From: Nemertoderma westbladi
Taxonomy: Eukaryota > Animalia > Xenacoelomorpha
DNA: 64,000 nt
Assembly: GCA_032718475.1 (NCBI GenBank)
Contig: JAUCBJ010009066.1
Coordinates: 17,389-81,388 of the forward strand
Direction: 5' to 3'
Numbering within the stretch: position 1 is the stretch's first letter; each line of letters begins with the position of its first letter. The notes below the pieces were generated by a model. That model did not search any database, was not told where the DNA came from, and worked only from the letters and a program-made list of their open reading frames with translations. Positions 1 through 56,026 of the stretch are shown piece by piece. The translations under genes were made by a program, and so were the position numbers.

Positions 1-330
1 TGTAGTAGAATCTAGTAGAATGTAGTAGAATCTAGTAGAATAGAGTAGAATGTGGTAGAATCTAGTAGAATAGAGTAGAATGTGGTAGAATCTAGTAGAA
101 TAGAGTAGAATGTAGTAGAATCTAGTAGAATAGAGTAGAATGTAGTAGAATCTAGTAGAATAGAGTAGAATGTAGTAGAATCTAGTAGAATAGAGTAGAA
201 TGTGGTCGAATCTAGTAGAATAGAGTAGAATGTAGTAGAATCTAGTAGAATAGAGTAGAATGTAGTAGAATCTAGTAGAATAGAGTAGAATGTAGTAGAA
301 TCTGGTATAATAGAGTAGAATGTAGTGGAG
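1..330. repeat. 10-bp minisatellite in 30-bp trimers (TGTAGTAGAA-TCTAGTAGAA-TAGAGTAGAA), truncated by window start
   Basis: Periodicity directly visible. Confidence 0.95.
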
Positions 331-1623: not shown

Positions 1624-2234
1624 CTAAATCGGTCTAACCTGATTTCGTAAATTAGCCCTCATGTTTTGGTAATTATTTATCCCAGTCTCTTCCCCGCCTC
1701 GAGTAGGTGATGTCACACCGTTGCTAAGAGACTGCGGATTGTTTACCACCGTGTTCGTCCAACCGGAGCTCTTGGGCCAGTTAGTGGGGGAAGGGCCGCC
1801 GAAGTGAAGCGGTCTATTTACCAGTTTCGATCCGGTAAGTTTCATCTGAAACCCGTTCCGGAATCTGTTACTACTGCTTGTTCCATCTCCGACCGCTTGG
1901 GGCGTCTTAAAGTTAGGCCGATGTGGATCGATAACAGTCCGTCTAGGAGTCGTGGTTGGGGTAATAAGGTTAGGCAACAACGGCGAGCCAGTGAACACGT
2001 TGTATTTGACAGAAGAGCCAGGGCGCTGTGTGGAGTTCGGCAATTGCGGTCCAATAAACGGCGTTTGTTTCTGGGAGGGAGAATTCGACATCTCAGGGCC
2101 AATGAATGGTTCGCGTTTTATAGAAGAATTAGGCAACGGCATGCTATTTGAGCCAATCACTGACGGGCTTCTTGAGACGCCGTTTGGTTTTAGGGGATTG
2201 GTGGGGGTTGAGAGTGGGGGGTTCTTATTGATAC
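1624..2234 (-). CDS. USP coding exon 7 (Pro/Ser/Thr/Asn-rich, probably disordered tail)
   Basis: AACTTAG|GT acceptor matches phase 1; open to TAG at 1624; contains two PFIGP motifs. Confidence 0.8.
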
Positions 2235-5200
2235 CTAAGTTAATGGAGAAAGTAAAGATCAAACATTATTGTTTTTATACAAATATTGAATAAATTATGT
2301 TCATTTAATCAGCTGTCTCTGGATATAAACAACTCTTGAAAATGAACGAAATAAATGACTCGCCGCAGACAAGAATCTAACAAGTGGTCGCCCAATTACC
2401 ACTCAGTCATGGCCGACCAATCACTGAGGTCAGCACACTCTGTGTGATTAATTTATTATTGTATTTTGGGTAAATGAGTGGGTTTCCTATTATTATGACT
2501 TGAGTGACTTGTCTTTCGTTGGGCACAGCTTAGCAAAGTCTGCAATGACGTCCAGGTGGGATCGAACTAGTGACCTGGCATACCGTAGACAAGGCAAAAG
2601 GCCGCTAGCGGTATGGCTATTGGTTATAGTTATAGCGCCAGATTTCCAACATGAAGGTCACTAGTTCGATCCCACCTGGGCGCCATTACCGACTTTGCAA
2701 AGCTGTGCCTAACGAAAGTCATAATAAATTGATTGATTTGTAACACACAATAACAATTAACAAACATTGTTGGTTGATACTAGGGATGCGACAGCGGAGC
2801 CGGAGCCGGAGCTCTGTCGCATCCCTAGTTGACACTATTAAATTAATTAGTATCATAAACTCACCGTTTTGTATGTTGTGTATTTGGTGGCTATTGTTGT
2901 TGCTAACGGCAACAGGACCACTGCGCTGACGAAGGTAGAATAACACGTACGCCCCCTGGTGTTGTTTTAATGCCTCCAAACGAGATATTCCTGTAGCCTA
3001 AAGGGATAAAAAATATTTACTTAAAAAACAATTGTTTTAAGGGGGGGGGGGGGGGGGGGGGGGGGGTAATATTTCAGTTGCTATGACATTGTAATTCAAG
3101 CTAGCCAATCAGTTTTTAGAACGAAATCAGTAACGTAGAGCCAAACCAGAATGTACAGCCAAATCAGTATAAAGAGCCAAATCAGTACGTAGAGCCAAAT
3201 CAGTAAGTAGAGCCAAATCATTTATGTAGAGCCAAATCAGTATGTAGAGCCAAATCAGTAATGTAGAGCCAAATCAGTTGTAGAGCCAAATCAGTAAGTA
3301 GAGCTAAATCAGTAAGATAGAGCCAAATCAGTATCTAGAGCCAAATCTGTACCTAGAGCCAAATCAGTATGTAGAGCCAAATCAGTTTGTAGAGCCAAAT
3401 CAGTGTAGAGCCAAATCATAGTAGAGCCAAATCAGTATGTAGAGCCAAATCAGTAAGTAGAGCCAAATCAGTAACGTAGAGCCAAATCAGTAAGATAGAG
3501 CCAAATCAGTAAGATAGAGCCAAATCAGTAAGTAGAGCAAAATCAGTAAGTAGAGCCAAATCAGTAATGTAGAGCCAAATCAGTAATGTAGAGCCAAATC
3601 AGTAAGATAGAGCCAAATCAGTAAGATAGAGCCAAATCAGTAAGATAGAGCCAAATCAGTAAGATAGAGCCAAATCAGTAAGATAGAGCCAAATCAGTAA
3701 GATAGAGCCAAATCAGTAAGATAGAGCCAAATCAGTAAGATAGAGCCAAATCAGTAAGATAGAGCCAAATCAGTAAGATAGAGCCAAATCAGTTTGTAGA
3801 GCCAAATCAGTAAGTAGAGCCAAATCAGTAAGTAGAGCCAAATCATGTAATGTAGAGCCAAATCAGTAATGTAGAGCCAAATCAGTAAGATAGAGCCAAA
3901 TCAGTAAGATAGAGCCAAATCAGTAAGATAGAGCCAAATCAGTAAGATAGAGCCAAATCAGTAAGTAGAGCCAAATCAGTTTGTAGAGCCAAATCAGTTT
4001 GTAGAGCCAAATCAGTAAGATAGAGCCAAATCAGTAAGTAGAGCCAAATCAGTAAGATAGAGCCAAATCAGTAAGATAGAGCCAAATCAGTAAGATAGAG
4101 CCAAATCAGTAAGTAGAGCCAAATCAGTAAGATAGAGCCAAATCAGTAATGTAGAGCCAAATCAGTAAGATAGAGCCAAATCAGTAAGATAGAGCCAAAT
4201 CAGTAAGATAGAGCCAAATCAGTAAGATAGAGCCAAATCAGTAAGATAGAGCCAAATCAGTAAGATAGAGCCAAATCAGTTTGTAGAGCCAAATCAGTTG
4301 TAGAGCCAAATCAGTTTGTAGAGCCAAATCAGTAAGTAGAGCTAAATCAGTTGTAGAACCAAATCAGTTTGTAGAGCCAAATCAGTAAGTAGAGCTAAAT
4401 CAGTAATATAGAGCCAAATCAGTTTGTAGAGCCAAATCAGTAAGTAGAGCTAAATCAGTAGTAGAGCTAAATCAGTAATATAGAGCCAAATCAGTTTGTA
4501 GAGCCAAATCTGTACCTAGAGCCAAATCAGTATGTAGAGCCAAATCAGTTTGTAGAGCCAAATCTGTACCTAGAGCCAAATCAGTATGTAGAGCCAAATC
4601 AGTATGTAGAGCCAAATCAGTATGTAGAGCCAAATCAGTAAGTAGAGCCAAATCAGTAAGTAGAGCTAAATCAGTAACGTAGAGCCAAATCAGTATGTAG
4701 AGTCAAATCAGTATGTAGAGCCAAATCAGTACGTAGAGCCAAATCAGTTTGTAGAGCAAAATCAGTGTAGAGCCAAATCAATAGGTAAAGCCAAATCAGT
4801 AAGGTAGAGCCAAATCAGTAAGATAGAGCCAAATCAGTAAGATAGAGCCAAATCAGTAAGATAGAGCCAAATCAGTAAGATAGAGCCAAATCAGTAAGAT
4901 AGAGCCAAATCAGTAAGATAGAGCCAAATCAGTAAGATAGAGCCAAATCAGTAAGATAGAGCCAAATCAGTAAGATAGAGCCAAATCAGTAAGATAGAGC
5001 CAAATCAGTAAGATAGAGCCAAATCAGTAAGATAGAGCCAAATCAGTAAGATAGAGCCAAATCAGTAAGATAGAGCCAAATCAGTAAGATAGAGCCAAAT
5101 CAGTAAGATAGAGCCAAATCAGTAAGATAGAGCCAAATCAGTAAGTAGAGCCAAATCAGTAAGATAGAGCCAAATCAGTAAGATAGAGCCAAATCAGTAA

Positions 5201-8200
5201 GATAGAGCCAAATCAGTAAGATAGAGCCAAATCAGTAAGATAGAGCCAAATCAGTAAGATAGAGCCAAATCAGTAAGATAGAGCCAAATCAGTAAGATAG
5301 AGCCAAATCAGTTTGTAGAGCCAAATCAGTTTGTAGAGCCAAATCAGTTTGTAGAGCCAAATCAGTTTGTAGAGCCAAATCAGTAAGTAGAGCTAAATCA
5401 GTTGTAGAACCAAATCAGTTTGTAGAGCCAAATCAGTAAGTAGAGCTAAATCAGTAATATAGAGCCAAATCAGTAAGTAGAGCCAAATCAGTAAGATAGA
5501 GCCAAATCAGTAAGATAGAGCCAAATCAGTAAGATAGAGCCAAATCAGTAAGATAGAGCCAAATCAGTAAGATAGAGCCAAATCAGTTTGTAGAGCCAAA
5601 TCAGTTTGTAGAGCCAAATCAGTTTGTAGAGCCAAATCAGTAAGTAGAGCTAAATCAGTTGTAGAACCAAATCAGTTTGTAGAGCCAAATCAGTAAGTAG
5701 AGCTAAATCAGTAATATAGAGCCAAATCAGTTTGTAGAGCCAAATCAGTAAGTAGAGCTAAATCAGTTGTAGAGCCAAATCAGTAAGTAGAGCTAAATCA
5801 GTAAGATAGAGCCAAATCAGTATCTAGAGCCAAATCTGTACCTAGAGCCAAATCAGTATGTAGAGCCAAATCAGTATGTAGAGCCAAATCAGTAAGTAGA
5901 GCCAAATCAGTAACGTAGAGCCAAATCAGTATGTAGAGTCAAATCAGTATGTAGAGCCAAATCAGTACGTAGAGCCAAATCAGTTTGTAGAGCCAAATCA
6001 GTGTAGAGCCAAATCAATAGGTAAAGCCAAATCAGTAAGGTAGAGCCAAATCAGTAAGATAGAGCCAAATCAGTAAGATAGAGCCAAATCAGTAAGATAG
6101 AGCCAAATCAGTATAGATAGAGCCAAATCAGTAAGATAGAGCCAAATCAGTAGGATAGAGCCAAATCAGTTTGTAGAGCCAAATCAGTAAGATAGAGCCA
6201 AATCAGTAAGATAGAGCCAAATCAGTAAGATAGAGCCAAATCAGTAAGATAGAGCCAAATCAGTAAGATAGAGCCAAATCAGTAAGATAGAGCCAAATCA
6301 GTAAGATAGAGCCAAATCAGTAAGATAGAGCCAAATCAGTAAGATAGAGCCAAATCAGTAATATAGAGCCAAATCAGTAAGATAGAGCCAAATCAGTAAG
6401 GTAGAGCCAAATCAGTAAGATAGAGCCAAATCAGTAAGATAGAGCCAAATCAGTAAGATAGAGCCAAATCAGTTTGTAGAGCCAAATCAGTGTAGAGCCA
6501 AATCAATAGGTAAAGCCAAATCAGTAAGGTAGAGCCAAATCAGTAAGATAGAGCCAAATCAGTAAGATAGAGCCAAATCAGTAAGATAGAGCCAAATCAG
6601 TAAGATAGAGCCAAATCAGTAAGATAGAGCCAAATCAGTAAGATAGAGCCAAATCAGTAGGATAGAGCCAAATCAGTTTGTAGAGCCAAATCAGTAAGAT
6701 AGAGCCAAATCAGTAAGATAGAGCCAAATCAGTAAGATAGAGCCAAATCAGTAAGATAGAGCCAAATCAGTAAGATAGAGCCAAATCAGTAAGATAGAGC
6801 CAAATCAGTAAGATAGAGCCAAATCAGTAAGATAGAGCCAAATCAGTAAGATAGAGCCAAATCAGTAATGTAGAGCCAAATCAGTAAGTAGAGCCAAATC
6901 AGTAAGATAGAGCCAAATCAGTAATATAGAGCCAAATCAGTAAGATAGAGCCAAATCAGTAAGGTAGAGCCAAATCAGTAAGATAGAGCCAAATCAGTAA
7001 GATAGAGCCAAATCAATAAGATAGAGCCAAATCAGTAAGATAGAGCCAAATCAGTAAGATAGAGCCAAATCAGTTTGTAGAGCCAAATCAGTTGTAGAAC
7101 CAAATCAGTTTGTAGAGCCAAATCAGTAAGTAGAGCTAAATCAGTTGTAGAGCCAAATCAGTAAGTAGAGCTAAATCAGTTTGTAGAGCCAAATCAGTAA
7201 GTAGAGCCAAATCAGTAAGTAGAGCCAAATCCGTATGTAGAGCCAAATCAGTAAGTAGAGCCAAATCAGTATGTAGAGCCAAATCAGTAAGTAGAGCCAA
7301 ATCAGTAAGATAGAGCCAAATCAGTTTGTAGAGCCAAATCAGTAAGATAGAGCCAAATCAGTAAGATAGAGCCAAATCAGTAAGATAGAGCCAAATCAGT
7401 AAGATAGAGCCAAATCAGTAAGATAGAGCCAAATCAGTAAGATAGAGCCAAATCAGTAAGATAGAGCCAAATCAGTAAGATAGAGCCAAATCAGTAAGAT
7501 AGAGCCAAATCAGTAAGATAGAGCCAAATCAGTAAGATAGAGCCAAATCAGTTTGTAGAGCCAAATCAGTTGTAGAGCCAAATCAGTTTGTAGAGCCAAA
7601 TCAGTAAGTAGAGCCAAATCAGTAATGTAGAGCCAAATCAGTTATGTAGAGCCAAATCAGTAAGATAGAGCCAAATCAGTAAGATAGAGCCAAATCAGTA
7701 AGATAGAGCCAAATCAGTAAGATAGAGCCAAATCAGTAAGTAGAGCCAAATCAGTTGTAGAGCCAAATCAGTAAGTAGAGCTAAATCAGTTAGTAGAGCC
7801 AAATCAGTAATGTAGAGCCAAATCAGTAATGTAGAGCCAAATCAGTAAGATAGAGCCAAATCAGTAAGTAGAGCCAAATCAGTAAGATAGAGCCAAATCA
7901 GTAAGATAGAGCCAAATCAGTAAGTAGAACCAAATCAGTTTGTAGAGCCAAATCAGTTTGTAGAGCCAAATCAGTGTAGAGCCAAATCAGTAGGTAGAGC
8001 CAAATCAGTAAGGTAGAGCCAAATCAGTAAGATAGAGCCAAATCAGTAAGTAGAGCCAAATCAGTAAGATAGAGCCAAATCAGTTTGTAGAGCCAAATCA
8101 GTAAGTAGAGCCAAATCAGTATGTAGAGCCAAATCAGTATGATAGAGCCAAATCAGTAAGATAGAGCCAAATCAGTAAGATAGAGCCAAATCAGTAAGAT

Positions 8201-11200
8201 AGAGCCAAATCAGTAAGATAGAGCCAAATCAGTTTGTAGAGCCAAATCAGTTGTAGAGCCAAATCAGTTTGTAGAGCCAAATCAGTAAGTAGAGCTAAAT
8301 CAGTTGTAGAACCAAATCAGTTTGTAGAGCCAAATCAGTAAGTAGAGCTAAATCAGTAATGTAGAGCCAAATCAGTTTGTAGAGCCAAATCAGTTTGTAG
8401 AGCCAAATCAGTAAGTAGAGCTAAATCAGTAATATAGAGCCAAATCAGTTTGTAGAGCCAAATCTGTACCTAGAGCCAAATCAGTATGTAGAGCCAAATC
8501 AGTTTGTAGAGCCAAATCTGTACCTAGAGCCAAATCAGTATGTAGAGCCAAATCAGTATGTAGAGCCAAATCAGTAAGTAGAGCCAAATCAGTAACGTAG
8601 AGCCAAATCAGTATGTAGAGTCAAATCAGTATGTAGAGCCAAATCAGTACGTAGAGCCAAATCAGTTTGTAGAGCAAAATCAGTGTAGAGCCAAATCAAT
8701 AGGTAAAGCCAAATCAGTAAGGTAGAGCCAAATCAGTAAGATAGAGCCAAATCAGTAAGATAGAGCCAAATCAGTAAGATAGAGCCAAATCAGTAAGATA
8801 GAGCCAAATCAGTAAGATAGAGCCAAATCAGTAAGATAGAGCCAAATCAGCAAGATAGAGCCAAATCAGTAAGATAGAGCCAAATCAGTAAGATAGAGCC
8901 AAATCAGTAAGATAGAGCCAAATCAGTAAGATAGAGCCAAATCAGTAAGATAGAGCCAAATCAGTAAGATAGAGCCAAATCAGTAAGATAGAGCCAAATC
9001 AGTAAGATAGAGCCAAATCAGTAAGATAGAGCCAAATCAGTAAGTAGAGCCAAATCAGTAAGATAGAGCCAAAACAGTAAGATAGAGCCAAATCAGTAAG
9101 ATAGAGCCAAATCAGTAAGATAGAGCCAAATCAGTAAGATAGAGCCAAATCAGTAAGATAGAGCCAAATCAGTAAGATAGAGCCAAATCAGTAAGATAGA
9201 GCCAAATCAGTTTGTAGAGCCAAATCAGTTTGTAGAGCCAAATCAGTTTGTAGAGCCAAATCAGTTTGTAGAGCCAAATCAGTAAGTAGAGCTAAATCAG
9301 TTGTAGAACCAAATCAGTTTGTAGAGCCAAATCAGTAAGTAGAGCTAAATCAGTAATATAGAGCCAAATCAGTAAGTAGAGCCAAATCAGTAAGATAGAG
9401 CCAAATCAGTAAGATAGAGCCAAATCAGTAAGATAGAGCCAAATCAGTAAGATAGAGCCAAATCAGTAAGATAGAGCCAAATCAGTTTGTAGAGCCAAAT
9501 CAGTTTGTAGAGCCAAATCAGTTTGTAGAGCCAAATCAGTAAGTAGAGCTAAATCAGTTGTAGAACCAAATCAGTTTGTAGAGCCAAATCAGTAAGTAGA
9601 GCTAAATCAGTAATATAGAGCCAAATCAGTTTGTAGAGCCAAATCAGTAAGTAGAGCTAAATCAGTTGTAGAGCCAAATCAGTAAGTAGAGCTAAATCAG
9701 TAAGATAGAGCCAAATCAGTATCTAGAGCCAAATCTGTACCTAGAGCCAAATCAGTATGTAGAGCCAAATCAGTATGTAGAGCCAAATCAGTAAGTAGAG
9801 CCAAATCAGTAACGTAGAGCCAAATCAGTATGTAGAGTCAAATCAGTATGTAGAGCCAAATCAGTACGTAGAGCCAAATCAGTTTGTAGAGCCAAATCAG
9901 TGTAGAGCCAAATCAATAGGTAAAGCCAAATCAGTAAGGTAGAGCCAAATCAGTAAGATAGAGCCAAATCAGTAAGATAGAGCCAAATCAGTAAGATAGA
10001 GCCAAATCAGTAAGATAGAGCCAAATCAGTAAGATATAGCCAAATCAGTAAGATAGAGCCAAATCAGTAGGATAGAGCCAAATCAGTTTGTAGAGCCAAA
10101 TCAGTAAGATAGAGCCAAATCAGTAAGATAGAGCCAAATCAGTAAGATAGAGCCAAATCAGTAAGATAGAGCCAAATCAGTAAGATAGAGCCAAATCAGT
10201 AAGATAGAGCCAAATCAGTAAGATAGAGCCAAATCAGTAAGATAGAGCCAAATCAGTAAGATAGAGCCAAATCAGTAATATAGAGCCAAATCAGTAAGAT
10301 AGAGCCAAATCAGTAAGGTAGAGCCAAATCAGTAAGATAGAGCCAAATCAGTAAGATAGAGCCAAATCAGTAAGATAGAGCCAAATCAGTTTGTAGAGCC
10401 AAATCAGTGTAGAGCCAAATCAATAGGTAAAGCCAAATCAGTAAGGTAGAGCCAAATCAGTAAGATAGAGCCAAATCAGTAAGATAGAGCCAAATCAGTA
10501 AGATAGAGCCAAATCAGTAAGATAGAGCCAAATCAGTAAGATAGAGCCAAATCAGTAAGATAGAGCCAAATCAGTAGGATAGAGCCAAATCAGTTTGTAG
10601 AGCCAAATCAGTAAGATAGAGCCAAATCAGTAAGATAGAGCCAAATCAGTAAGATAGAGCCAAATCAGTAAGATAGAGCCAAATCAGTAAGATAGAGCCA
10701 AATCAGTAAGATAGAGCCAAATCAGTAAGATAGAGCCAAATCAGTAAGATAGAGCCAAATCAGTAAGATAGAGCCAAATCAGTAATGTAGAGCCAAATCA
10801 GTAAGTAGAGCCAAATCAGTAAGATAGAGCCAAATCAGTAATATAGAGCCAAATCAGTAAGATAGAGCCAAATCAGTAAGGTAGAGCCAAATCAGTAAGA
10901 TAGAGCCAAATCAGTAAGATAGAGCCAAATCAATAAGATAGAGCCAAATCAGTAAGATAGAGCCAAATCAGTAAGATAGAGCCAAATCAGTTTGTAGAGC
11001 CAAATCAGTTGTAGAACCAAATCAGTTTGTAGAGCCAAATCAGTAAGTAGAGCTAAATCAGTTGTAGAGCCAAATCAGTAAGTAGAGCTAAATCAGTTTG
11101 TAGAGCCAAATCAGTAAGTAGAGCCAAATCAGTAAGTAGAGCCAAATCCGTATGTAGAGCCAAATCAGTAAGTAGAGCTAAATCAGTTGTAGAGCCAAAT

Positions 11201-14200
11201 CAGTAAGTAGAGCCAAATCAGTAAGATAGAGCCAAATCAGTTTGTAGAGCCAAATCAGTAAGATAGAGCCAAATCAGTAAGATAGAGCCAAATCAGTAAT
11301 ATAGAGCCAAATCAGTAAGATAGAGCCAAATCAGTAAGGTAGAGCCAAATCAGTAAGATAGAGCCAAATCAGTAAGATAGAGCCAAATCAGTAAGATAGA
11401 GCCAAATCAGTAAGATAGAGCCAAATCAGTAAGATAGAGCCAAATCAGTAAGATAGAGCCAAATCAGTTTGTAGAGCCAAATCAGTTGTAGAACCAAATC
11501 AGTTTGTAGAGCCAAATCAGTAAGTAGAGCTAAATCAGTTGTAGAACCAAATCAGTTTGTAGAGCCAAATCAGTAAGTAGAGCTAAATCAGTAATATAGA
11601 GCCAAATCAGTTTGTAGAGCTAAATCAGTAATATAGAGCCAAATCAGTAAGTAGAGCTAAATCAGTTGTAGAGCCAAATCAGTAAGTAGAGCTAAATCAG
11701 TTTGTAGAGCCAAATCAGTAAGTAGAGCCAAATCCGTATGTAGAGCCAAATCAGTAAGTAGAGCTAAATCAGTTGTAGAGCCAAATCAGTAAGTAGAGCC
11801 AAATCAGTAAGATAGAGCCAAATCAGTTTGTAGAGCCAAATCAGTAAGTAGAACCAAATCAGTTTGTAGAGCCAAATCAGTTTGTAGAGCCAAATCAGTG
11901 TAGAGCCAAATCAATAGGTAAAGCCAAATCAGTAAGGTAGAGCCAAATCAGTAAGATAGAGCCAAATCTGTACCTAGAGCCAAATCAGTATGTAGAGCCA
12001 AATCAGTTTGTAGAGCCAAATCTGTACCTAGAGCCAAATCAGTATGTAGAGCCAAATCAGTATGTAGAGCTAAATCAGTAATATAGAGCCAAATCAGTTT
12101 GTAGAGCTAAATCAGTAATATAGAGCCAAATCAGTTTGTAGAGCCAAATCAGTAAGTAGAGCTAAATCAGTTGTAGAGCCAAATCAGTAAGTAGAGCCAA
12201 ATCAGTAAGATAGAGCCAAATCAGTTTGTAGAGCCAAATCAGTAAGTAGAGCCAAATCAGTAACGTAGAGCTAAATCAGTACGTAGAGCCAAATCAGTTT
12301 GTAGAGCCAAATCAGTGTAGAGCCAAATCAATAGGTAAAGCCAAATCAGTAAGGTAGAGCCAAATCAGTAAGATAGAGCCAAATCTGTACCTATAGCCAA
12401 ATCAGTATGTAGAGCCAAATCAGTTTGTAGAGCCAAATCTGTACCTAGAGCCAAATCAGTATGTAGAGCCAAATCAGTATGTAGAGCCAAATCAGTAAGT
12501 AGAGCCAAATCAGTAACGTAGAGCCAAATCAGTATGTAGAGTCAAATCAGTATGTAGAGCCAAATCAGTACGTAGAGCCAAATCAGTTTGTAGAGCCAAA
12601 TCAATAGGTAAAGCCAAATCAGTAAGGTAGAGCCAAATCAGTAAGATAGAGCCAAATCAGTAAGATAGAGCCAAATCAGTAAGATAGAGCCAAATCAGTA
12701 AGATAGAGCCAAATCAGTAAGATAGAGCCAAATCAGTAAGATAGAGCCAAATCAGTAAGATAGAGCCAAATCAGTAAGATAGAGCCAAATCAGTAAGATA
12801 GAGCCAAATCAGTTTGTAGAGCCAAATCAGTAAGATAGAGCCAAATCAGTAACGTAGAGCTAAATCAGTATGTGGAGCCAAATGAGTATGTAGAGCCAAA
12901 TCAGTACGTAGAGCCAAATCAGTTTGTAGAGCCAAATCAGTAATGTAGGGCAAATAATGAAACAACTCACCATGGCGTCGTCATATTTAAACCATTGCCC
13001 CTTCCCGTAGACCGTTGCTATGCCAACATAGTGCCCGGAATGGGGACTGGATCCGTGATGAAGAATAGCGCCAACTAGCGTATAATTGTGGCGCTGCAAA
13101 TTAAATAAACATTATAGACAGAGGAAGTCAATAAATGTAATCATAGTGAAAGCGAAACACATTAACCACAACCCATGTATCAATAAAGTCAACTAATATA
13201 TAACGACTAGTGTTAACTCTAACCCTCTGTTAACTAGTGTTAACTAAAACTTACAACTGTAACCATTTACTTTATCACTCATTTATTATTACTTTTGACG
13301 GTGTTTATTATTTATTACTTTATTATTAAGTTGAATGATTATCCATTGAACGAACTGCATAGTAAAATAATTTCAAAATCATTTCTAAATCTAAAATTAC
13401 AAGATTCTAATTTACCCGATTAGGTAAATTAGTTTTGTACTGATATAGTTATGTAACGGCCTGTTTACACGTGGGAACTTCTAGAGCAACTTTCTCGGCA
13501 ACTTGTAGAGCAACCCAGGTTGCCGATCAAGTTGCTCCGTGTAAACACGCAAAAAAGTTGCCGTAAAAGTTGCTCAACTTTTACGGCAACTTGAAGGAAT
13601 TTGCGTTGGCGAATTAGAGAGGGATAATTAGATTAAATTATCAAAAACTAGATAGTAGGCAAAATGACCCACTATTTTACAGTTAAACTAGCCAAGTTGC
13701 TCTAAAAGTTGCCGGCCAAAAGTTGCTGGTAAAGTTGCCACGTGTAAACAGCTATTAAATTAAGCTGCTCCAAAAAAAGTTGCTAGTTGCTGAGAAAGTT
13801 GCTCTAAAAGTGGCCACGTGCATGTAAACAGGCCTTAATGGACATACCTAAAGGAAGGCGGTAAGCAAACAAGGCCTAACAGTTTGTTCTAGAACATATT
13901 TTCCAAAAGACTATTGAAAAACTTAACAATTTACTCACGTCTTGGTAGTGGGTATTAACTGTTGTAAATGGACCGATGTTCTTAGATACAGATGTTCTTG
14001 GATAATATGTTATATTCCATTGCCAGAGCTACCACATCACCTTGTTTGCTATGAGCTTAGAGTGTGCGTTTAGTGTCTTTTTACATTTCAACAACTTGGT
14101 TCTTCTTTCTTCTCTGTCTTCTGTTCCAGTAGCCAATTTATCGACCCCAGTCTGGTGAACCACTGGGGGACGCGGTCCTTGTTGACACGGGCGACGACCG

Positions 14201-32200: not shown

Positions 32201-35200
32201 ACCTGGGTATTAACTGTTGTAAATGGACCGATATCTTTACTCACCTGGGTATTAACTGTTGTAAATGGACCGATATCTTTACTCACCTGGGTATTAACTG
32301 TTGAAAATGGACCGATATCTTTACTCACCTGGGTATTAACTGTTGTAAATGGACCGATATCTTTACTCACCTGGGTATTAACTGTTGTAAATGGACCGAT
32401 ATCTTTACTCACCTGGGTATTAACTGTTGTAAATGGACCGATATCTTTACTCACCTGGGTATTAACTGTTGTAAATGGACCGATATCTTTACTCACCTGG
32501 GTATTAACTGTTGTAAATGGACCGATATCTTTACTCACCTGGGTATTAACTGTTGTAAATGGACCGATATCTTTACTCACCTGGGTATTAACTGTTGAAA
32601 ATGGACCGATATCTTTACTCACCTGGGTATTAACTGTTGTAAATGGACCGATATCTTTACTCACCTTGGTATTAACTGTTGTAAATGGACTGCTTTACTC
32701 ACCTGGGTATTAACTGTTGTAAATGGACCGATATCTTTACTCACCCGGGTATTAACTGTTGTAAATGGACCGATATCTTTACTCACCTGGGTATTAACTG
32801 TTGTAAATGGACCGATATCTTTACTCACCTGGGTATTAACTGTTGTAAATGGACCGATATCTTTACTCACCTGGGTATTAACTGTTGTAAATGGACTGCT
32901 TTACTCACCTGGGTATTAACTGTTGTAAATGGACCGATATCTTTACTCACCCGGGTATTAACTGTTGTAAATGGACCGATATCTTTACTCACCTGGGTAT
33001 TAACTGTTGTAAATGGACCGATATCTTTACTCACCTGGGTATTAACTGTTGTAAATGGACCGATATCTTTACTCACCTGGGTATTAACTGTTGTAAATGG
33101 ACCGATATCTTTACTCACCTGGGTATTAACTGTTGTAAATGGACCGATATCTTTACTCACCTGGGTATTAACTGTTGTAAATGGACCGATAGCTTTACTC
33201 ACCTCCACCTGGTATTAACTGTTGTAAATGGACCGATATCTTTACTCACCTGGGTATTAACTGTTGTAAATGGACCGATATCTTTACTCACCTGGGTATT
33301 AACTGTTGTAAATGGACCGATATCTTTACTCACCTGGGTATTAACTGTTGTAAATGGACCGATATCTTTACTGCTCACCTGGGTATTAACTGTTGTAAAT
33401 GGACCGATATCTTTACTCACCTGGGTATTAACTGTTGTAAATGGACCGATATCTTTATTCACCTGGGTATTATATAACTGTTGTAAATGGACCGATATCT
33501 TTACTCACCTGGGTATTAACTGTTGTAAATGGACCGATATCTTTACTCACCCGGGTATTAACTGTTGTAAATGGACCGATATCTTTACTCACCTGGGTAT
33601 TAACTGTTGTAAATGGACTACTTTACTCACCTGGGTATTAACTGTTGTAAATGGACCGATATCTTTACTCACCTGGGTATTAACTGTTGTAAATGGACCG
33701 ATATCTTTACTCACCTGGGTATTAACTGTTGTAAATGGACCGATATCTTTACTCACCTGGGTATTAACTGTTGTAAATGGACCGATATCTTTACTCACCT
33801 GGGTATTAACTGTTGTAAATGGACCGTGCTTTACTCACCTGGGTATTAACTGTTGTAAATGGACCGATATCTTTACTCACCTGGGTATTAACTGTTGTAA
33901 ATGGACCGATATCTTTACTCACCTGGGTATTAACTGTTGTAAATGGACCGATATCTTTACTCACCTGGGTATTAACTGTTGTAAATGGACCGATATCTTT
34001 ACTCACCTGGGTATTAACTGTTGTAAATGGACCGATATCTTTACTCACCTGGGTATTAACTGTTGTAAATGGACGTGCTTTACTCACCTGGGTATTAACT
34101 GTTGTAAATGGACCGATATCTTTACTCACCTGGGTATTAACTGTTGTAAATGGACCGATATCTTTACTCACCTGGGTATTAACTGTTGAAAATGGACCGA
34201 TATCTTTACTCACCTGGGTATTAACTGTTGTAAATGGACCGATATCTTTACTCACCTGGGTATTAACTGTTGTAAATGGACCGATATCTTTACTCACCTG
34301 GGTATTAACTGTTGAAAATGGACCGATATCTTTACTCACCTGGGTATTAACTGTTGTAAATGGACCGATATCTTTACTCACCTGGGTATTAACTGTTGTA
34401 AATGGACCGATATCTTTACTCACCTGGGTATTAACTGTTGTAAATGGACCGATATCTTTACTCACCTGGGTATTAACTGTTGTAAATGGACCGATATCTT
34501 TACTCACCTGGGTATTAACTGTTGTAAATGGACCGATATCTTTACTCACCTGGGTATTAACTGTTGTAAATGGACCGATATCTTTACTCACCTGGGTATT
34601 AACTGTTGTAAATGGACCGATATCTTTACTCACCTGGGTATTAACTGTTGTAAATGGACCGATATCTTTACTCACCTGGGTATTAACTGTTGAAAATGGA
34701 CCGATATCTTTACTCACCTGGGTATTAACTGTTGTAAATGGACCGATATCTTTACTCACCTGGGTATTAACTGTTGAAAATGGACCGATATCTTTACTCA
34801 CCTGGGTATTAACTGTTGTAAATGGACCGATATCTTTACTCACCTTGGTATTAACTGTTGTAAATGGACTGCTTTACTCACCTGGGTATTAACTGTTGTA
34901 AATGGACCGATATCTTTACTCACCCGGGTATTAACTGTTGTAAATGGACCGATATCTTTACTCACCTGGGTATTAACTGTTGTAAATGGACCGATATCTT
35001 TACTCACCTGGGTATTAACTGTTGTAAATGGACCGATATCTTTACTCACCTGGGTATTAACTGTTGTAAATGGACGTAGCTTTACTCACCTGGGTATTAA
35101 CTGTTGTAAATGGACCGATATCTTTACTCACCCGGGTATTAACTGTTGTAAATGGACCGATATCTTTACTCACCTGGGTATTAACTGTTGTAAATGGACC

Positions 35201-38200
35201 GATATCTTTACTCACCTGGGTATTAACTGTTGTAAATGGACCGATAGCTTTACTCACCTGGGTATTAACTGTTGTAAATAGACCGATATCTTTACTCACC
35301 TGGGTTTAACTGTTGTAAATGGACCGATATCTTTACTCACCTGGGTATTAACTGTTGTAAATGGACCGATAGCTTTACTCACCTCCACCTGGTATTAACT
35401 GTTGTAAATGGACCGATATCTTTACTCACCTGGGTATTAACTGTTGTAAATGGACCGATATCTTTACTCACCTGGGTATTAACTGTTGTAAATGGACCGA
35501 TATCTTTACTCACCTGGGTATTAACTGTTGTAAATGGACCGATATATTTACTGACTCACCTGGGTATTAACTGTTGTAAATGGACCGATATCTTTACTCA
35601 CCTGGGTATTAACTGTAGTAAATGGACCGATATCTTTATTCACCCGGGTATTATATAACTGTTGTAAATGGACCGATATCTTTACTCACCTGGGTATTAA
35701 CTGTTGTAAATGGACCGATATCTTTATTCACCCGGGTATTATATAACTGTTGTAAATGTACCGATATCTTTACTCACCCGGGTATTATATACTGTTGTAA
35801 ATGGACCGATATCTTTACTCACCCGGGTATTATATAACTGTTGTAAATGGACCGATATCTTTACTCACCCGGGTATTAACTGTTGTAAATGGACCGATAT
35901 CTTTACTCACCTGGGTATTAACTGTTGTAAATGGACCGATATCTTTACTCACCTGGGTATTAACTGTTGTAAATGGACCGATATCTTTACTCACCCGGGT
36001 ATTAACTGTTGTAAATGGACCGATATCTTTACTCACCTGGGTATTAACTGTTGTAAATGGACCGATATCTTTACTCACCCGGGTATTAACTGTTGTAAAT
36101 GGACCGATATCTTTACTCACCTGGGTATTAACTGTTGTAAATGGACCGATATCTTTACTCACCCGGGTATTAACTGTTGTAAATGGACCGATATCTTTAC
36201 TCACCTGGGTATTAACTGTTGTAAATGGACCGATATCTTTACTCACCCGGGTATTAACTGTTGTAAATGGACCGATATCTTTACTCACCTGGGTATTAAC
36301 TGTTGTAAATGGACCGATATCTTTACTCACCCGGGTATTAACTGTTGTAAATGGACCGATATCTTTACTCACCTGGGTATTAACTGTTGTAAATGGACCG
36401 ATATCTTTACTCACCTGGGTATTAACTGTTGTAAATGGACCGATATCTTTACTCACCCGGGTATTAACTGTTGTAAATGGACCGATATCTTTACTCACCT
36501 GGGTATTAACTGTTGTAAATGGACCGATATCTTTACTCACCTGGGTATTAACTGTTGTAAATGGACCGATATCTTTACTCACCTGGGTATTAACTGTTGT
36601 AAATGGACCGATATCTTTACTCACCTGGGTATTAACTGTTGTAAATGGACCGATATCTTTACTCACCCGGGTATTAACTGTTGTAAATGGACCGATATCT
36701 TTACTCACCTGGGTATTAACTGTTGAAAATGGACCGATATCTTTACTCACCTGGGTATTAACTGTTGTAAATGGACCGATATCTTTACTCACCCGGGTAT
36801 TAACTGTTGTAAATGGACCGATATCTTTACTCACCTGGGTATTAACTGTTGTAAATGGACCGATATCTTTACTCACCTGGGTATTAACTGTTGTAAATGG
36901 ACCGATATCTTTACTCACCTGGGTATTAACTGTTGTAAATGGACCGATATCTTTATTCACCTGGGTATTATATAACTGTTGTAAATGGACCGATATCTTT
37001 ACTCACCCGGGTATTAACTGTTGTAAATGGACCGATATCTTTACTCACCTGGGTATTAACTGTTGTAAATGGACCGATATCTTTACTCACCTGGGTATTA
37101 ACTGTTGTAAATGGACCGATATCTTTACTCACCTGGGTATTAACTGTTGTAAATGGACCGATAGGCCTATATTTACTCACCAGGGTATTAACTGTTGAAA
37201 ATGGACCGATATTGATATTTTCCAAATATTTAACTCTCCTGGTGTCTTTCCTAACGATTCCAGGGAAATTTGATTTAAACCTTTTTAAATGAAGGATTAA
37301 CACATTGGGCGGCTGGTGGATGAGCACTCGCTTAGTTGCGTTCACTTTATGGCGACATCTGCGTATAGATTAATAGCGAATAATTAATAATTATTCAAAT
37401 GATAAATTAAATTTAAAAAATTAAATAATACAATGATAGCGTATTGATAAAAACGAATAACTATATGTTAGTCTCGCACTTGTACAATTCAATAATTCAT
37501 TAGGGATGTTACCCCGAGGTATGTTTGTCACGCACCTGTACACTCGAGGTATGTTTGTCACGCACCTGTAACCCCGAGGTATGTTTGTCACGCACCTGTA
37601 CACTCGAGGTATGTTTGTCACGCACCTGTAACCCCGAGGTATGTTTGTCACGCACCTGTAACCCCGAGGTATGTTTGTCACGCACCTGTACATTAGAGGT
37701 ATGTTTGTCACGCACCTGTAACCCCGAGGTATGTTTGTCACGCACCTGTAAACTCGAGGTATGTTTATCACGCACCTGTACATTAGAGGTATGTTTATCA
37801 CGCACCAGTAACCCCCAGGTATGTTTGTCACGCACCTGTAACCCCGAGGTATGTTTGTCACGCACCTGTACATTAGAGGTATGTTTGTCACGCACCTGTA
37901 CATTAGAGGTATGTTTGTCACGCACCTGTAAACTCGAGGTATGTTTGTCACGCACATGTAACCCCGAGGTATGTTTGTCACGCACCTGTAACCCCGAGGT
38001 ATGTTTGTCACGCACCTGTAACCCCGAGGTATGTTTGTCACGCACCTGTACATTAGAGGTATGTTTGTCACGCACCTGTAAACTCGAGGTATGTTTGTCA
38101 CGCACATGTAACCCCGAGGTATGTTTGTCACACACCTGTAACCCCGAGGTATGTTTGTCACGCACCTGTACATTAGAGGTATGTTTGTCACGCACCTGTA

Positions 38201-41200
38201 CATTAGAGGTATGTTTGTCACGCACCTGTAACCCCGAGGTATGTTTGTCACGCACATGTAACCCCGAGGTATGTTTGTCACGCACCTGTAACCCCGAGGT
38301 ATGTTTGTCACGCACCTGTACATTAGATGTATGTTTGTCACGCACCTGTACATTAGAGGTATGTTTGTCACGCACCTGTAAACTCGAGGTATGTTTGTCA
38401 CGCACATGTAACCCCGAGGTATGTTTGTCACGCACCTGTAACCCCGAGGTATGTTTGTCACGCACCTGTAACCCCGAGGTATGTTTGTCACGCACCTGTA
38501 CATTAGAGGTATGTTTGTCACGCACCTGTAAACTCGAGGTATGTTTGTCACGCACATGTAACCCCGAGGTATGTTTGTCACGCACCTGTACATTAGAGGT
38601 ATGTTTGTCACGCACCTGTAACCCCGAGGTATGTTTGTCACGCACATGTAACCCCGAGGTATGTTTGTCACGCACCTGTAACCCCGAGGTATGTTTGTCA
38701 CGCACCTGTACATTAGAGGTATGTTTGTCACGCACCTGTACATTAGAGGTATGTTTGTCACGCACCTGTAAACTCGAGGTATGTTTGTCACGCACATGTA
38801 ACCCCGAGGTATGTTTGTCACGCACCTGTAACCCCGAGGTATGTTTGTCACGCACCTGTAACCCCGAGGTATGTTTGTCACGCACCTGTACATTAGAGGT
38901 ATGTTTGTCACGCACCTGTAAACTCGAGGTATGTTTGTCACGCACATGTAACCCCGAGGTATGTTTGTCACGCACCTGTAACCCCGAGGTATGTTTGTCA
39001 CGCACCTGTACATTAGAGGTATGTTTGTCACGCACCTGTACATTAGAGGTATGTTTGTCACGCACCTGTAACCCCGAGGTATGTTTGTCACGCACATGTA
39101 ACCCCGAGGTATGTTTGTCACGCACCTGTAACCCCGAGGTATGTTTGTCACGCACCTGTACATTAGATGTATGTTTGTCACGCACCTGTACACTCGAGGT
39201 ATGTTTGTCACGCACCTGTAACCCCGAGGTATGTTTGTCACGCACCTGTAACCCCGAGGTATGTTTGTCACGCACCTGTACATTAGAGGTATGTTTGTCA
39301 CGCACCTGTACACTCGCGGTATGTTTGTCACGCACCTGTAAACTCGAGGTATGTTTATCACGCACCTGTACATTAGAGGTATGTTTATCACGCACCAGTA
39401 ACCCCCAGGTATGTTTGTCACGCACCTGTAACCCCGAGGTATGTTTGTCACGCACCTGTACATTAGAGGTATGTTTGTCACGCACCTGTACATTAGAGGT
39501 ATGTTTGTCACGCACCTGTAAACTCGAGGTATGTTTATCACGCACCTGTACATTAGAGGTATGTTTATCACGCACCAGTAACCCCCAGGTATGTTTGTCA
39601 CGCACATGTAACCCCGAGGTATGTTTGTCACGCACCTGTACACTCGAGGTATGTTTGTCACGCACCTGTACACTCGAGGTATGTTTGTCATGCACCAGTA
39701 ACCCCAGGTATGTTTGTCACGCACCAGTAACCCCCAGGTATGTTTGCCACGCACATGTCACACTGAGGTATGTTTGTCACGCACCAGTAACCCCCAGGTA
39801 TGTTTGTCACGCACCAGTTACCCCCAGGTATGTTTGTCACGCACCAGTAACCCCCAGGTATGTTTGCCACGCACATGTCACACTGAGGTATGTTTGTCAC
39901 GCACCTGTTACCCCCAGGTATGTTTGTCACGCACCTGTTACCCCCAGGTATGTTTGTCACGCACCAGTAACCCCCAGGTATGTTTGTCACGCACCTGTTA
40001 CCCCCAGGTATGTTTGTCACGCACCAGTAACCCCCAGGTATGTTTGTCACGCACCTGTTACCCCCAGGTATGTTTGTCACGCACCAGTAACCCCCAGGTA
40101 TGTTTGTCACGCACCAGTTACCCCCAGGTATGTTTGTCACGCACCAGTAACCCCCAGGTATGTTTGCCACGCACATGTCACACTGAGGTATGTTTGTCAC
40201 GCACCTGTTACCCCCAGGTATGTTTGTCACGCACCTGTTACCCCCAGGTATGTTTGTCACGCACCAGTAACCCCCAGGTATGTTTGTCACGCCCCTGTTA
40301 CCCCCAGGTATGTTTGTCACGTACCAGTAACCCCCAGGTATGTTTGTCACGCACCTGTTACCCCCAGGTATGTTTGTCACGCACCAGTAACCCCCAGGTA
40401 TGTTTGTCACGCACCTGTTACCCCCAGGTATGTTTGTCACGCACCAGTAACCCCCAGGTATGTTTGTCACGCACCTGTTACCCCCAGGTATGTTTGTCAC
40501 GCACCAGTAACCCCCAGGTATGTTTGTCACGCACCTGTTACCCCCAGGTATGTTTGTCACGCACCAGTAACCCCCAGGTATGTTTGTCACGCACCTGTTA
40601 CCCCCAGGTATGTTTGTCACGCACCAGTAACCCCCAGGTATGTTTGTCACGCACCTGTTACCCCCAGGTATGTTTGTCACGCACCAGTAACCCCCAGGTA
40701 TGTTTGTCACGCACCAGTAACCACCAGGTATGTTTGTCACGCACCTGTTACCCCCAGGTATGTTTGTCACGCACCAGTAACCCCCAGGTATGTTTGTCAC
40801 GCACCTGTTACCCCCAGGTATGTTTGTCACGCACCAGTAACCCCCAGGTATGTTTGTCACGCACCTGTTACCCCCAGGTATGTTTGTCACGCACCTGTTA
40901 CCCCCAGGTATGTTTGTCACGCACCTGTTACCCCCAGGTATGTTTGTCACGCACCAGTAACCCCCAGGTATGTTTGTCACGCACCTGTTACCCCCAGGTA
41001 TGTTTGTCACGCACCAGTAACCCCCAGGTATGTTTGTCACGCACCTGTTACCCCCAGGTATGTTTGTCACGCACCAGTAACCCCCAGGTATGTTTGTCAC
41101 GCACCAGTTACCCCCAGGTATGTTTGTCACGCACCTGTTACCCCCAGGTATGTTTGTCACGCACCAGTAACCCCCAGGTATGTTTGTCACGCACCTGTTA

Positions 41201-44200
41201 CCCCCAGGTATGTTTGTCACGCACCAGTAAACCCCAGGTATGATTGTCACGCACCAGTAACCCCCAGGTATGATTGTCACGCACCTGTCACATTGATACT
41301 GGTTGTTCCCATAGAGTCGCGTAGATATAGCGAACATCCTCAGCAGTTCGATTATATTTACCGGATGGTCCGACTTGGGTAAATCCAAACTGAGTTGGGT
41401 GAACACTTCGTAAGTGTTCGACTTATAATGGCACTCACCACAGACAACCTGGGAGCGCATAGTACCCGCAAATATATCCCGCAAAGCTGATCTAAAAAAT
41501 TTAAAAAAGCCGAAACATATTATTAATAATAAGAATAATAAGGTGTTGTTACCGACCCGGGGCTTCTCGCAATGTTATTATTTTGCTGTAATCACCTAGC
41601 AACGGCGTTGTTCATTAAATTGATTATCGATGATTTTCGATTAAAACAAATATATAAGAACATGTTAAATTAACAATGTATTATTCTAATTGGGGGAGTG
41701 GATGGGGACTTTCGATCGATTATTTTCGTAACTATTTTCGATCGATTAACGATTTTCGATCACCTTTGGACAACCAAGTAAATTAGTTGGGTATCACATC
41801 ACGGTTTTTAAAGTATGTCGTTAATTAAACTCAATATAGAAAATAATGTGTATGTACCGGTAGATACAGGGAATTATTTTGTTCTTTTTTTTTTTTAGAA
41901 TATTGGCCTTTAAAGCCAATAATTATCCTAACGTGGTTCCCATTCCTTGCCAGACCCCCCCCCCCCCCCCCCCTTCCTACTCGACGCCTCTACCTGATTT
42001 TCCCCCTCTCCACCTGATCCCCCCTACCTGGTTTTCCCATTCGCGTGTACTATAAGCGATTTGGACAGAGCGTCCAGCATGTAGACCAAATACTCGTGGG
42101 CGTCCTCCTCACCACCGACGTGCATGTTGCGACACAAGGAGGACAATGACGCCACTAGCGGCTTGGGGAGGAATGCGGATTGGTTGGAATGGAGTTGTTC
42201 GCAGACCCGTGTCATATTGCAAGCGTGGCAGGGTTGGCGGTTGCCTAGGATACAGGCCATACTGAGCATTAAATTAATTTCCAAACAATTATATAATATG
42301 TAATAATACCTATATACTATTTTATTCATTCTAAACATGTGGTATATAAATTATACAATACATAAATAGGGCCTACTATATAATCATTAAATATATAAAA
42401 TATCGTTTTTGCCATTCAATTATTACTTTAAATTACCGGTATTCATTAATTAAGAAATTATATATTATTAGGCCTAGTTCCCCATTAAACTAATAATAAA
42501 AGTTCTGAAGTTATCATAAACATATATAAATAAAGAGGCCCCAACTCTGCAACTATGAGGATGAGGAATTACATCCGTAATATGTTTATCTGTTTGTATA
42601 ATATAAATATATATACTAAGTATAGTAAAAATATTATACTATAGTAAAATAATAATATGTTAATCATACCTATTATTACAGCAGTACATGACACAGGTAG
42701 GTAGGCGATAGTTGCAGAGCAGTAGGGAACATACCCTTAAATAAGCTCCAAAAGTGGGTTCTTATTTAAGGAAAATGGCTCTTATTTAGGGGTTTTTGGG
42801 CCTTTTTTGGATATTTTTTCGATATAATATGCAATAACTTGTTTCAGGAAAAAATACCGCATAATTTTATTTCACAATGTAAAAGTTGGGTCTTTCTTGA
42901 ACATAAAGCAAAAAACCAGAAAACATTTCACCGTCCGGTTTTTTTTCTACAAGCGTTTTAAAATTGCATCAAAAATACGACCAGTTCCTAAATAAGAGGG
43001 ATTTTTTAAATTTACCTTATTTAAGACATCGAAATTGTACACAAATACTAATAGTCCTTAAATAAGAACTTTTTGACATGGGTTTCTTATTTAGGTATAC
43101 AATTTCATTCCAAAATCTGCATACTCCTTAAATAAATTAAATATTTCTCATTTCTCACAGAGAGTAGAAGCAGTTCCGCGACAATAATAATATTGCTCCT
43201 CAAAAGTACTTTGTGTACAGTATGTGTTACACTTCTTTCATAATTCTTTGATTTACAGATTTATGTCAGTCTGTATAATGCTAATTGTTGGGTTAAGGAT
43301 AAGGACAATGGTTGCACTGCACTCTATAAATCCTCTATAGAATATCGTATCATTATGAAGTTGCTAGCACTGGCATTCTTACCTCACACGGTAGCATAGA
43401 ATAGCCCATTGATATTCAAAAGAATAGCCCATCGCCCATCTGAGCGCACATACATTGTCACGTATTTCGATGAAACATGACTCAAGTAACTGGACATCGC
43501 CGCACAGTTTCGAAAAACTAACTTGTGTCCTGCATTTCCTCTTCTGCTCCGCGTTACGCCCCACTTAGATGGATTGTCCAAAATGTTGTACTTGAAAGGT
43601 GTGAAAAAAGTGAAAAACCAATGTCAATGTCATGTCAATAGGCACAAAGATGGTTCGTTTGGGCAGCTGATAGACGTTATGAAGGTTAAAGATGATGACT
43701 GGATGACGTTTTGGCTCAACTAGCTCAGGCAGGAGTGGGACACGTTCGTGGGACCTTTGCGCAGCATGAAGTGAGCAAAGCCTTAGCTAGCCCTAGCTGA
43801 TAGGGGCCCCACCCCATTTACATGTTGTCTTTCGTTAGTCAGAGGTCGTTCAACACAATACTCGTCTCCTTAATTTGCCTCATTGCGTTCGTTTGTTTTT
43901 TTACCAAACTTCAGATTATTTCTAATCTTTTGACAGACTACATACTGACATACATACAAAGTTTCGTTTAATTTCATCAAGGAATGACCGTGTTATTACC
44001 GATAAAAAATTTACAACGACGACAGACAACTCGTTAATAGCACCCATATGCTAAGGCTTCGCTCACTTGAACGTGGCTCTCCCCCACATTCAATCCGGTT
44101 CGACGCAGTTTGTTGCTCATTGCTGCTCGTTGTGCTTTATTATTTCTCATTGTTGCTCGTTGTTGGTCATTGTTGCTTGTTGGTGCTCATTGTTGCTCGT

Positions 44201-53445: not shown

Positions 53446-53616
53446 TAGGCAGATACTTACATGGAGCTTACAGATACTTACATTCGAGCTTACAGATACT
53501 TACATGGAGCTTACAGATACTTACATGGAGCTTACAGATACTTACATGGAGCTTACAGAAACTTACATGGAGCTTACAGATACTTACATGGAGCTTACAG
53601 ATACTTACATGGAGCA
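53443..53616. repeat. 21-bp tandem repeat (CAGATACTTACATGGAGCTTA), ~8 units
   Basis: Directly visible, at the end of the LINE coding remnant. Confidence 0.93.
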
Positions 53617-55894: not shown

Positions 55895-56026
55895 TCAATA
55901 AGGTGATTGTAAAAGAAGACGCTGCAACTCGCTGCAATTCGCTGCAACGCAGTTTAGATTGTTCGATTAGAGGGGGTTGCCGCTGAAATTTAGTAATTTA
56001 TGTTTATGAAGACAAGTAATAATATA

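What the first reader, a model, noticed from the sequence alone, without database searches (positions are those of the whole stretch)
2998..42027. Splice-donor-seeded tandem arrays in four consecutive introns of one gene
Seen: introns 3, 4 and 5 are filled by three unrelated arrays (30, 42, ~19 bp). Each is anchored at the intron's 5' end and stops short of the acceptor. The 30- and 42-bp units contain the gene's own exon/donor junction, the 19-bp array begins about 15-25 nt after its donor, and intron 2 has a degenerate donor re-copy. Known: tandem duplication of AG|GT-containing DNA is a proposed intron-gain route, and minisatellites expand by slippage or unequal exchange. Inference: independent arrays nucleated at successive donors suggest a splice-site-targeted duplication process (e.g. 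coupled to transcription, splicing or R-loop repair), or that only donor-anchored expansions are tolerated. I do not know a named system matching this.
Basis: partly seen in the sequence, partly recalled or inferred. Interest (0 to 1): 0.9.

Follow-up and report, generated by a model that had tools for sequence, protein, structure and literature searches.

The report
Giant splice-donor minisatellites in deubiquitinase gene
Three introns in a row of a deubiquitinase gene are swollen by huge tandem repeats that begin at or just after the exon end, two of them copying the splice signal over a hundred times, yet the one spliced transcript seen uses the first signal, so this is likely an extreme example of a repeat type already known from lancelets and humans.

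Summary
A minus-strand USP36/USP42-like gene (663 aa, 7 coding exons) carries arrays of about 126 x 30 bp, 524 x 42 bp and 533 x 18-19 bp in introns 3-5. The 42-mer copies 32 nt of exon plus 10 nt of intron; the 30-mer copies the donor and likely about 12 nt of exon. The 19-mer only lies beside its donor, and intron 2 holds a small degenerate re-copy. A spliced contig from one run joins exons 3-4-5 at the first donors, although 363 downstream sites in intron 4 match the donor consensus better. This is a named class: lancelet 'mirage' minisatellites (including consecutive donors in PGBD5) and the human F7, CBS and ABCA7 VNTRs. The scan also noted such arrays on other DNA (14 notes, at least 11 genomes; unchecked). 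The introns were not created by the repeats. A geometric null gives p of about 0.003-0.017, chosen after the fact, in introns once as short as ~170 nt. A donor-targeting process is not excluded but could not be tested, because no genome is held. Best reading: ordinary duplication and array turnover, filtered by splicing. Only the scale is unusual.

The parts
46591..47113 (-). Coding exon 1 of a USP36/USP42-like deubiquitinase (holds the catalytic Cys box)
   Evidence: UCH 1-29; run X4 contig 46590-47169, depth 773
42719..46440 (.). Inserted element in intron 1: 488-bp inverted repeats, 5-bp flanking direct repeat, 10-mer array 44110-45585 inside; not donor-anchored
42028..42244 (-). Coding exon 2
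   Evidence: UCH 48-106; boundaries from frame, not seen in RNA
41975..42046 (-). Exon 2 donor with a degenerate re-copy 35 nt downstream (16 of 19 matching), not an array
   Evidence: shuffle p=0.002
41285..41491 (-). Coding exon 3; its own donor is the one joined to exon 4
   Evidence: loose end equals exon 3 end
37507..41288 (-). 30-bp donor-spanning minisatellite, about 126 copies; 80 of 119 counted unit starts (the real donor included) read CAG|GTGCGT
37181..37358 (-). Coding exon 4; first donor used; Ser/Thr allele at 37198 shared with array units
14990..37212 (-). 42-bp donor-spanning minisatellite (32 nt exon + 10 nt intron), about 524 copies, with an internal 6,420-bp block duplication (99.1%)
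   Evidence: present in DNA runs X1, X2, X3
13949..14799 (-). Remnant 42-mer pieces (13949-13977, 14783-14799) separated from the array by other sequence
12971..13093 (-). Coding exon 5 (holds the His box)
   Evidence: UCH 197-233; loose end equals exon 5 start
3124..12948 (-). 18/19-bp minisatellite, about 533 copies, starting about 9-22 nt after the donor, no exon sequence; internal ~3.9-kb block duplication (97.2%)
2865..2997 (-). Coding exon 6
1564..2234 (-). Last coding exon (low-complexity tail) and start of the 3' UTR; the 3' end is inferred from the X4 contig length

Best explanation
Two of the three arrays are copies of the gene's own exon-end and splice donor and the third lies just inside its intron; they likely arose as ordinary short tandem duplications, likely grew by slippage and unequal exchange, and likely persist because splicing uses the first donor, which is seen in one transcript contig. 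Shown: unit content, first-donor use at introns 3 and 4, an intact 126-148 nt unique tail before two acceptors, kilobase block duplications inside two arrays. Inferred: the seeding event, the growth mechanism, and the filter. Before growth introns 3 and 5 were about 170 nt, so once the acceptor region and the coding interior are excluded the donor end is a large share of the places where a duplication is harmless.
For: Unit anatomy. Run X4: one contig, depth 1,038, covers exactly exon 4 and its loose ends equal the exon 5 start and the exon 3 end; no X4 cover on 37075-37179. In the same run an intron-1 read-through contig at depth 22.9 against 773 was kept, a rough sign that a minor form of about 3% can show up. 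Block duplications of 6,420 bp (99.1%) and ~3.9 kb (97.2%) and patchy variant runs. The region is array-prone: 3 multi-copy arrays over 100 bp in about 18.5 kb outside the gene. First-donor choice among identical downstream copies is shown for human F7 (PMC1557585, abstract and Discussion). Lancelet mirages do not disturb splicing and occur at consecutive donors in PGBD5 (passages).
Against: All three locally seeded arrays plus the intron 2 re-copy are at donors and none at acceptors or intron interiors; the geometric null gives 0.003-0.017 for the three, even with 30-50 nt of acceptor region excluded. In intron 4, 363 downstream sites match the donor consensus better than the real donor (8/9 against 7/9), so tolerance is not trivial; human ABCA7 shows read-through into a donor-adjacent VNTR (PMC13747324, passages). 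Acceptor-side mirages exist (BflGb6), so the filter is not absolute. X4 is labelled 'DNA?' by the tool, is one sample, gives contigs only, and its individual's arrays are not shown.
Confidence: 0.68

Rival explanations
1. A mutational process seeds tandem duplications preferentially at 5' splice sites, for example through transcription- or splicing-coupled breaks or R-loops at the donor, followed by ordinary array growth.
For: Donor-junction copies in 3 of 6 introns and acceptor copies in 0 of 6, plus a fourth array 9-22 nt after a donor; the one non-donor intronic array sits inside an inserted element; p about 0.003-0.017.
Against: One gene, picked because it looks like this; pre-expansion introns were short; 3 arrays outside the gene have no shown link to a used donor; nothing here measures breaks or R-loops; selection alone predicts a donor-over-acceptor bias.
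Confidence: 0.17
2. The decoy donors are functional: they tune splicing or give in-frame insertions, since 30 and 42 are multiples of three.
For: 24 of 121 downstream donors in intron 3 and the first 4 of 517 in intron 4 would give a full-length in-frame protein; ABCA7 VNTR length is tied to altered splicing.
Against: Only first-donor joins seen in X4; insertions would fall inside the catalytic domain; 113 of 515 42-mer units are of other lengths; the first two downstream donors of intron 3 would give truncated products; no unusual RNA structure at the three donors (z -0.15, 0.75, 1.00).
Confidence: 0.05
3. The arrays are real but their lengths are inflated by assembly, for example two haplotypes laid end to end.
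For: Near-identical internal blocks (6,420-bp offset with a 2,019-bp exact run; ~3.9-kb offset).
Against: The blocks differ by substitutions and gaps (23 mismatches, 8 gaps in 5.8 kb; 97.2% in the other), and multi-copy 42-mer contigs occur in DNA runs of two studies. It would change the size, not the anchoring.
Confidence: 0.1

Closest known systems
Lancelet 'mirage' minisatellites (Adh3, globins BflGb6/BflGb9, troponin C, PGBD5). Seen: matching passages of PMC3087553 and PMC3902484; the original Adh3 paper (PMC117041) was not held
   Same: Unit spans an exon-intron boundary and duplicates the splice signal; splicing undisturbed; in PGBD5 arrays abut the donors of two consecutive exons; Adh3 units of 10-72 bp
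   Different: Copy number: 2-7 in the globin and PGBD5 cases against about 126 and 524 here; arrays make up over 90% of the introns; organism not identified as a lancelet
Human F7 intron 7 37-bp VNTR (PMC1557585; abstract and Discussion read)
   Same: First unit spans the donor; downstream pseudo-donors silent; most upstream site used even against stronger sites
   Different: 5-9 sites against hundreds; tested by mutagenesis there, by one contig here
Human CBS 31-bp VNTR c.1444_1467+7(16_21) (PMC2630376; passages)
   Same: By its notation 24 nt of exon plus 7 nt of intron, like the 32+10 unit here
   Different: 16-21 copies; splicing outcome not stated in the passages I saw
Human ABCA7 intron 18 ~25-bp VNTR (PMC13747324; passages)
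   Same: Donor-adjacent array reaching over 200 copies, like the 19-mer
   Different: Read-through and exon skipping are reported there; none seen here
Intron gain by tandem duplication of AG|GT DNA (Rogers model; as cited in PMC3087553 and PMC2812944, passages)
   Same: Duplicated DNA holding AG|GT
   Different: Here the acceptors are old unique sites beyond the arrays; no new intron is formed

Membership tests
Mirage minisatellite (30- and 42-mer) | Repeat unit spans an exon-intron boundary | tested here: met
   42-mer: 32 nt exon + 10 nt intron; 30-mer: donor in every unit, exon-like ends in 3 (10/12) and 22 (gapped) of 125 units
Mirage minisatellite (30- and 42-mer) | Copies carry potential splice sites | tested here: met
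   361 of 516 and 80 of 119 unit starts read CAG|GT
Mirage minisatellite (30- and 42-mer) | Normal splicing is kept | tested here: met
   One contig of one run joins exons 3-4-5 at the first donors; rare forms and that individual's arrays not seen
Mirage minisatellite (30- and 42-mer) | Length instability between alleles or cells | tested here: inconclusive
   First unit is 48 bp in the window and 42 bp in X3 (one contig, depth 3.2); array-to-unique depth differs greatly between X1 and X2, but these depths are not copy numbers
Mirage minisatellite (19-mer) | Repeat unit spans an exon-intron boundary | tested here: not met
   No junction similarity (p=0.94); it is a donor-adjacent intronic VNTR
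Rogers-type intron gain | Acceptor supplied by the last repeat copy and the next exon starting with the rest of the unit | tested here: not met
   Acceptors 148 and 1,896 nt beyond the arrays in unique sequence; exon starts unlike the units
Rogers-type intron gain | Intron absent from orthologues of relatives | tested here: inconclusive
   80 metagenome loci were distant and nearly all without introns; 1 of 80 gave three or more segments
Donor-targeted duplication process | Genome-wide excess of array starts at donors over intron interiors | not testable with these tools
   No whole genome held
USP36/USP42 subfamily | UCH domain with closest named relatives USP36/42 | tested here: met
   best solved match human USP36 (E 7e-34 against 1e-13 for the next family), with a profile that includes a fungal homologue; only 29-37% identity to any hit; no tree built

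The most novel reading that the evidence does not exclude
In this animal lineage tandem duplications are seeded preferentially at splice donors of transcribed genes and can grow to tens of kilobases; the spliceosome ignores more than 350 better-matching donors in one intron, and the array trades variants with the coding exon (the Ser/Thr allele of exon 4 occurs in both forms among the units).
Probability: 0.17. Interest if true: 0.72.

Novelty: new member of a known kind. Interest (0 to 1): 0.3.

Why it matters
As it stands it is an extreme natural test of 5' splice-site choice: a real donor matching the consensus at 7 of 9 positions is used ahead of 363 sites matching at 8 of 9 over 22 kb, far beyond the 5-9 sites of human F7. 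It also shows how introns of about 170 nt can grow to 4-24 kb without transposons. [quoted passage not shown]

Tried and rejected
Whole genome: none held, so no genome-wide test. First exon 2 boundary (42260) gave a broken frame and was corrected to 42244. Homologue searches with single exons: 0 hits among 11 candidates and 1 fungal hit among 286; the profile search gave no close relative, so the organism is not placed beyond 'probably an animal' (inference from gene and repeat style). No RNA holder was listed; X4 is treated as spliced RNA only because of its exon-exon joins. The 42-mer unit had 0 exact matches in metagenome contigs. Intron positions in relatives: uninformative. The 21-mer at 53450-53615 holds a perfect donor motif on the minus strand; I tested whether it marks an upstream exon of this gene and X4 gave no cover at 53402-54349, which is absence in contigs only. 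RNA folding at three donors was no better than shuffles. A microhomology at the duplication breakpoints could not be pinned down. Earlier notes on this genome or look-alike DNA: none; none held all words on a genome-wide donor-versus-acceptor test. Paper searches listed no genome-wide test of donor enrichment; I saw most hits as listings only, the library lacks most subscription papers, and no supplements were read. PMC10078293 (passages) did not address it.
Full report
Gene. The window holds a minus-strand gene whose seven coding exons give one open frame of 663 aa with GT..AG introns of 4,346, 536, 3,926, 24,087, 9,973 and 630 nt. Four of seven exons hit Pfam UCH in profile order. The best solved-structure match of an exon-plus-homologue profile is human USP36, and of ten close hits looked up, four are named USP36, USP36-like or USP42 and one plant UBP23; the rest are unnamed or hypothetical. 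Identity to the 40 best hits is only 29-37%, so the organism is not placed.

Arrays. TRF finds a 30-mer (37507-41288, 126 copies), a 42-mer (14990-37212, 524 copies) and a 19-mer (3124-12948, 533 copies), filling 96%, 92% and 98.5% of introns 3-5 and 35.8 kb of the 45.5-kb gene. The 42-mer is the last 32 nt of exon 4 plus the first 10 nt of the intron; 402 of 515 units are 42 bp and 361 of 516 unit starts read CAG|GTGAGT, whereas the real donor reads CTG|GTGAGT. The 30-mer starts at the donor; 80 of 119 counted starts read CAG|GTGCGT. Its exon share is likely about 12 nt: 3 of 125 units match the last 12 exon bases at 10/12 and 22 match with a gap, but the units next to the donor match at only 5-7 of 12. 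The 19-mer holds no exon or donor sequence and starts 22 nt in by TRF, about 9 nt in if a degenerate unit is counted. Intron 2 has one degenerate re-copy of the junction 35 nt on (p=0.002). Donor-junction copies are significant in 3 of 6 introns and acceptor-junction copies in 0 of 6; one of the other 12 tests (next-exon start, intron 5) gave p=0.03, which I treat as chance.

Other arrays. Intron 1 has a 10-mer array 1,005 nt from its donor, between 488-bp inverted repeats that are 98% alike and flanked by a 5-bp direct repeat, which reads as an inserted element. Without it intron 1 is about 620 nt. Outside the gene lie three more multi-copy arrays (30-mer at 3-326, 21-mer at 53450-53615, 32-mer at 56028-57139) in about 18.5 kb, so arrays are common here in general.

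Splicing and independent DNA. Five of eight listed runs hold exon 7, all labelled 'DNA?'. Four were laid on 37075-37500. X4 gives one contig of depth 1,038 that covers exactly exon 4; its loose ends equal the start of exon 5 and the end of exon 3 letter for letter. So the first donors of introns 3 and 4 are used in that sample, and X4 behaves as spliced RNA. X4 has no cover on the second and third copies. In the same run a contig running from exon 1 into intron 1 at depth 22.9 against 773 was kept, a rough sign that a minor form can be seen; contigs still drop rare variants, and whether the X4 individual has the arrays is not shown. X1 (possibly the assembly's source) and X2/X3 (one sample, another study) hold many 42-mer contigs, and one X3 contig (depth 3.2) bridges exon 4 and a plain 42-bp first unit. 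The 30- and 19-mers were not checked in reads; introns 1, 2, 5 and 6 were not seen as joints, although the X4 contig length fits exons 5-7.

Turnover. The 42-mer array contains a 6,420-bp block duplication (99.1%, 23 mismatches, 8 gaps) and the 19-mer array one of about 3.9 kb (97.2%); variants run in patches. This is what unequal exchange leaves, though haplotypes joined by the assembler could look alike. Exon 4 differs at 37198 between the window and X1 on one side and X3 and X4 on the other (Ser or Thr), and both forms occur among the units (14 and 476 of 515). Exchange between array and exon would explain this, but so would a recurrent mutation; not tested.

Is the anchoring more than chance? 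Collapsing the arrays gives introns of about 166, 155 and 850-1,910 nt. The chance that all three seeds span or start within 25 nt of the donor is 0.003-0.017, depending on the intron 4 length and on excluding 0-50 nt at the acceptor; counting the intron 1 array as a fourth trial gives 0.005-0.019 for at least three of four. That is suggestive for one gene but the gene was chosen for this pattern out of a very large scan, so it cannot separate biased seeding from a splicing filter. The genome-wide test was not possible.

Mechanism. Most likely a short tandem duplication across or beside the donor (inferred), growth by slippage and unequal exchange (inferred from block structure and general knowledge of minisatellites), and survival because the first donor is still used (seen in one sample) and the last 126-148 nt before two acceptors stay intact (seen). 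Downstream donors would mostly be harmful: only 24 of 121 in intron 3 and 4 of 517 in intron 4 would give a full-length protein, each with an insertion in the catalytic domain. The introns were not made by the repeats, because the acceptors are unique sites beyond them.

Known relatives. Repeats spanning exon-intron boundaries are named 'mirages' in lancelet Adh3 and globin genes, at both donor and acceptor sides, with splicing undisturbed and the origin called unclear (PMC3087553, passages). Lancelet PGBD5 has them at the donors of exons 3 and 4 (PMC3902484, passages), a direct precedent for consecutive donors. Human F7 uses only the most upstream of 5-9 identical donors, even against stronger ones (PMC1557585, abstract and Discussion). 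CBS has a 24+7 unit by its notation (PMC2630376, passages) and ABCA7 a donor-adjacent VNTR of up to over 200 copies with read-through (PMC13747324, passages). The Adh3 paper itself was not held. Earlier notes of this scan gave me these leads and describe similar arrays in at least 11 other genomes; they are unchecked and are not counted as support.

Verdict. Real, already-named kind of repeat; new member, unusual in scale and in having three such introns in a row. Interest 0.3. The bolder reading, donor-biased seeding in this lineage, stays open at about 0.17.

Noticed in passing
window 42719-46440: 3.7-kb non-coding inserted element in intron 1: 488-bp terminal inverted repeats (98%), 5-bp flanking direct repeat, 1.5-kb degenerate 10-mer array inside; superfamily not assigned.
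   Followed up: partly
window 47169-47171: The X4 contig for exon 1 begins right after an AG, 56 nt before the ATG; this may mark an unplaced upstream UTR exon or trans-splicing, which would shift the intron numbering.
   Followed up: partly
window 53450-53615: 21-bp array (8 copies) whose unit holds CAT|GTAAGT on the minus strand; no X4 cover upstream of it, so no exon shown.
   Followed up: partly
window 56019-57150: 32-bp array (1.1 kb) with an 11-bp direct repeat on both sides, just upstream of a 229-codon stop-to-stop frame (57200-57889, +) with no Pfam hit.
   Followed up: no
window 3-326: 30-bp array downstream of the gene, cut by the window edge; on the minus strand it is pyrimidine-rich and units end in AG, like an acceptor.
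   Followed up: no
window 37198: Exon 4 Ser/Thr allele; both forms occur among the 42-mer units (14 and 476 of 515).
   Followed up: partly
window 37421-39757 and 39688-41574 (minus): The 30-mer is open in the exon 3 frame for 532 codons and open for 1,292 codons on the plus strand (37504-41382); a by-product of a stop-free unit that could mislead gene callers.
   Followed up: partly
window 49573-50500, 51407-51841 / 63646-64000, 54414-54681 / 62097-62356, 61647-62103 / 62784-63242: Dispersed repeats and likely mobile-element remnants; the first looks by eye like the end of a non-LTR retrotransposon but had no Pfam hit.
   Followed up: no
window 2510-2721 and 59999-60097: Small inverted-repeat element in intron 6 with a related copy near 60 kb.
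   Followed up: no
window 37075-37164 (runs X1, X2): Array-to-unique contig depth is far higher in X1 than in X2; may hint at different array lengths or library bias, not a copy number.
   Followed up: no
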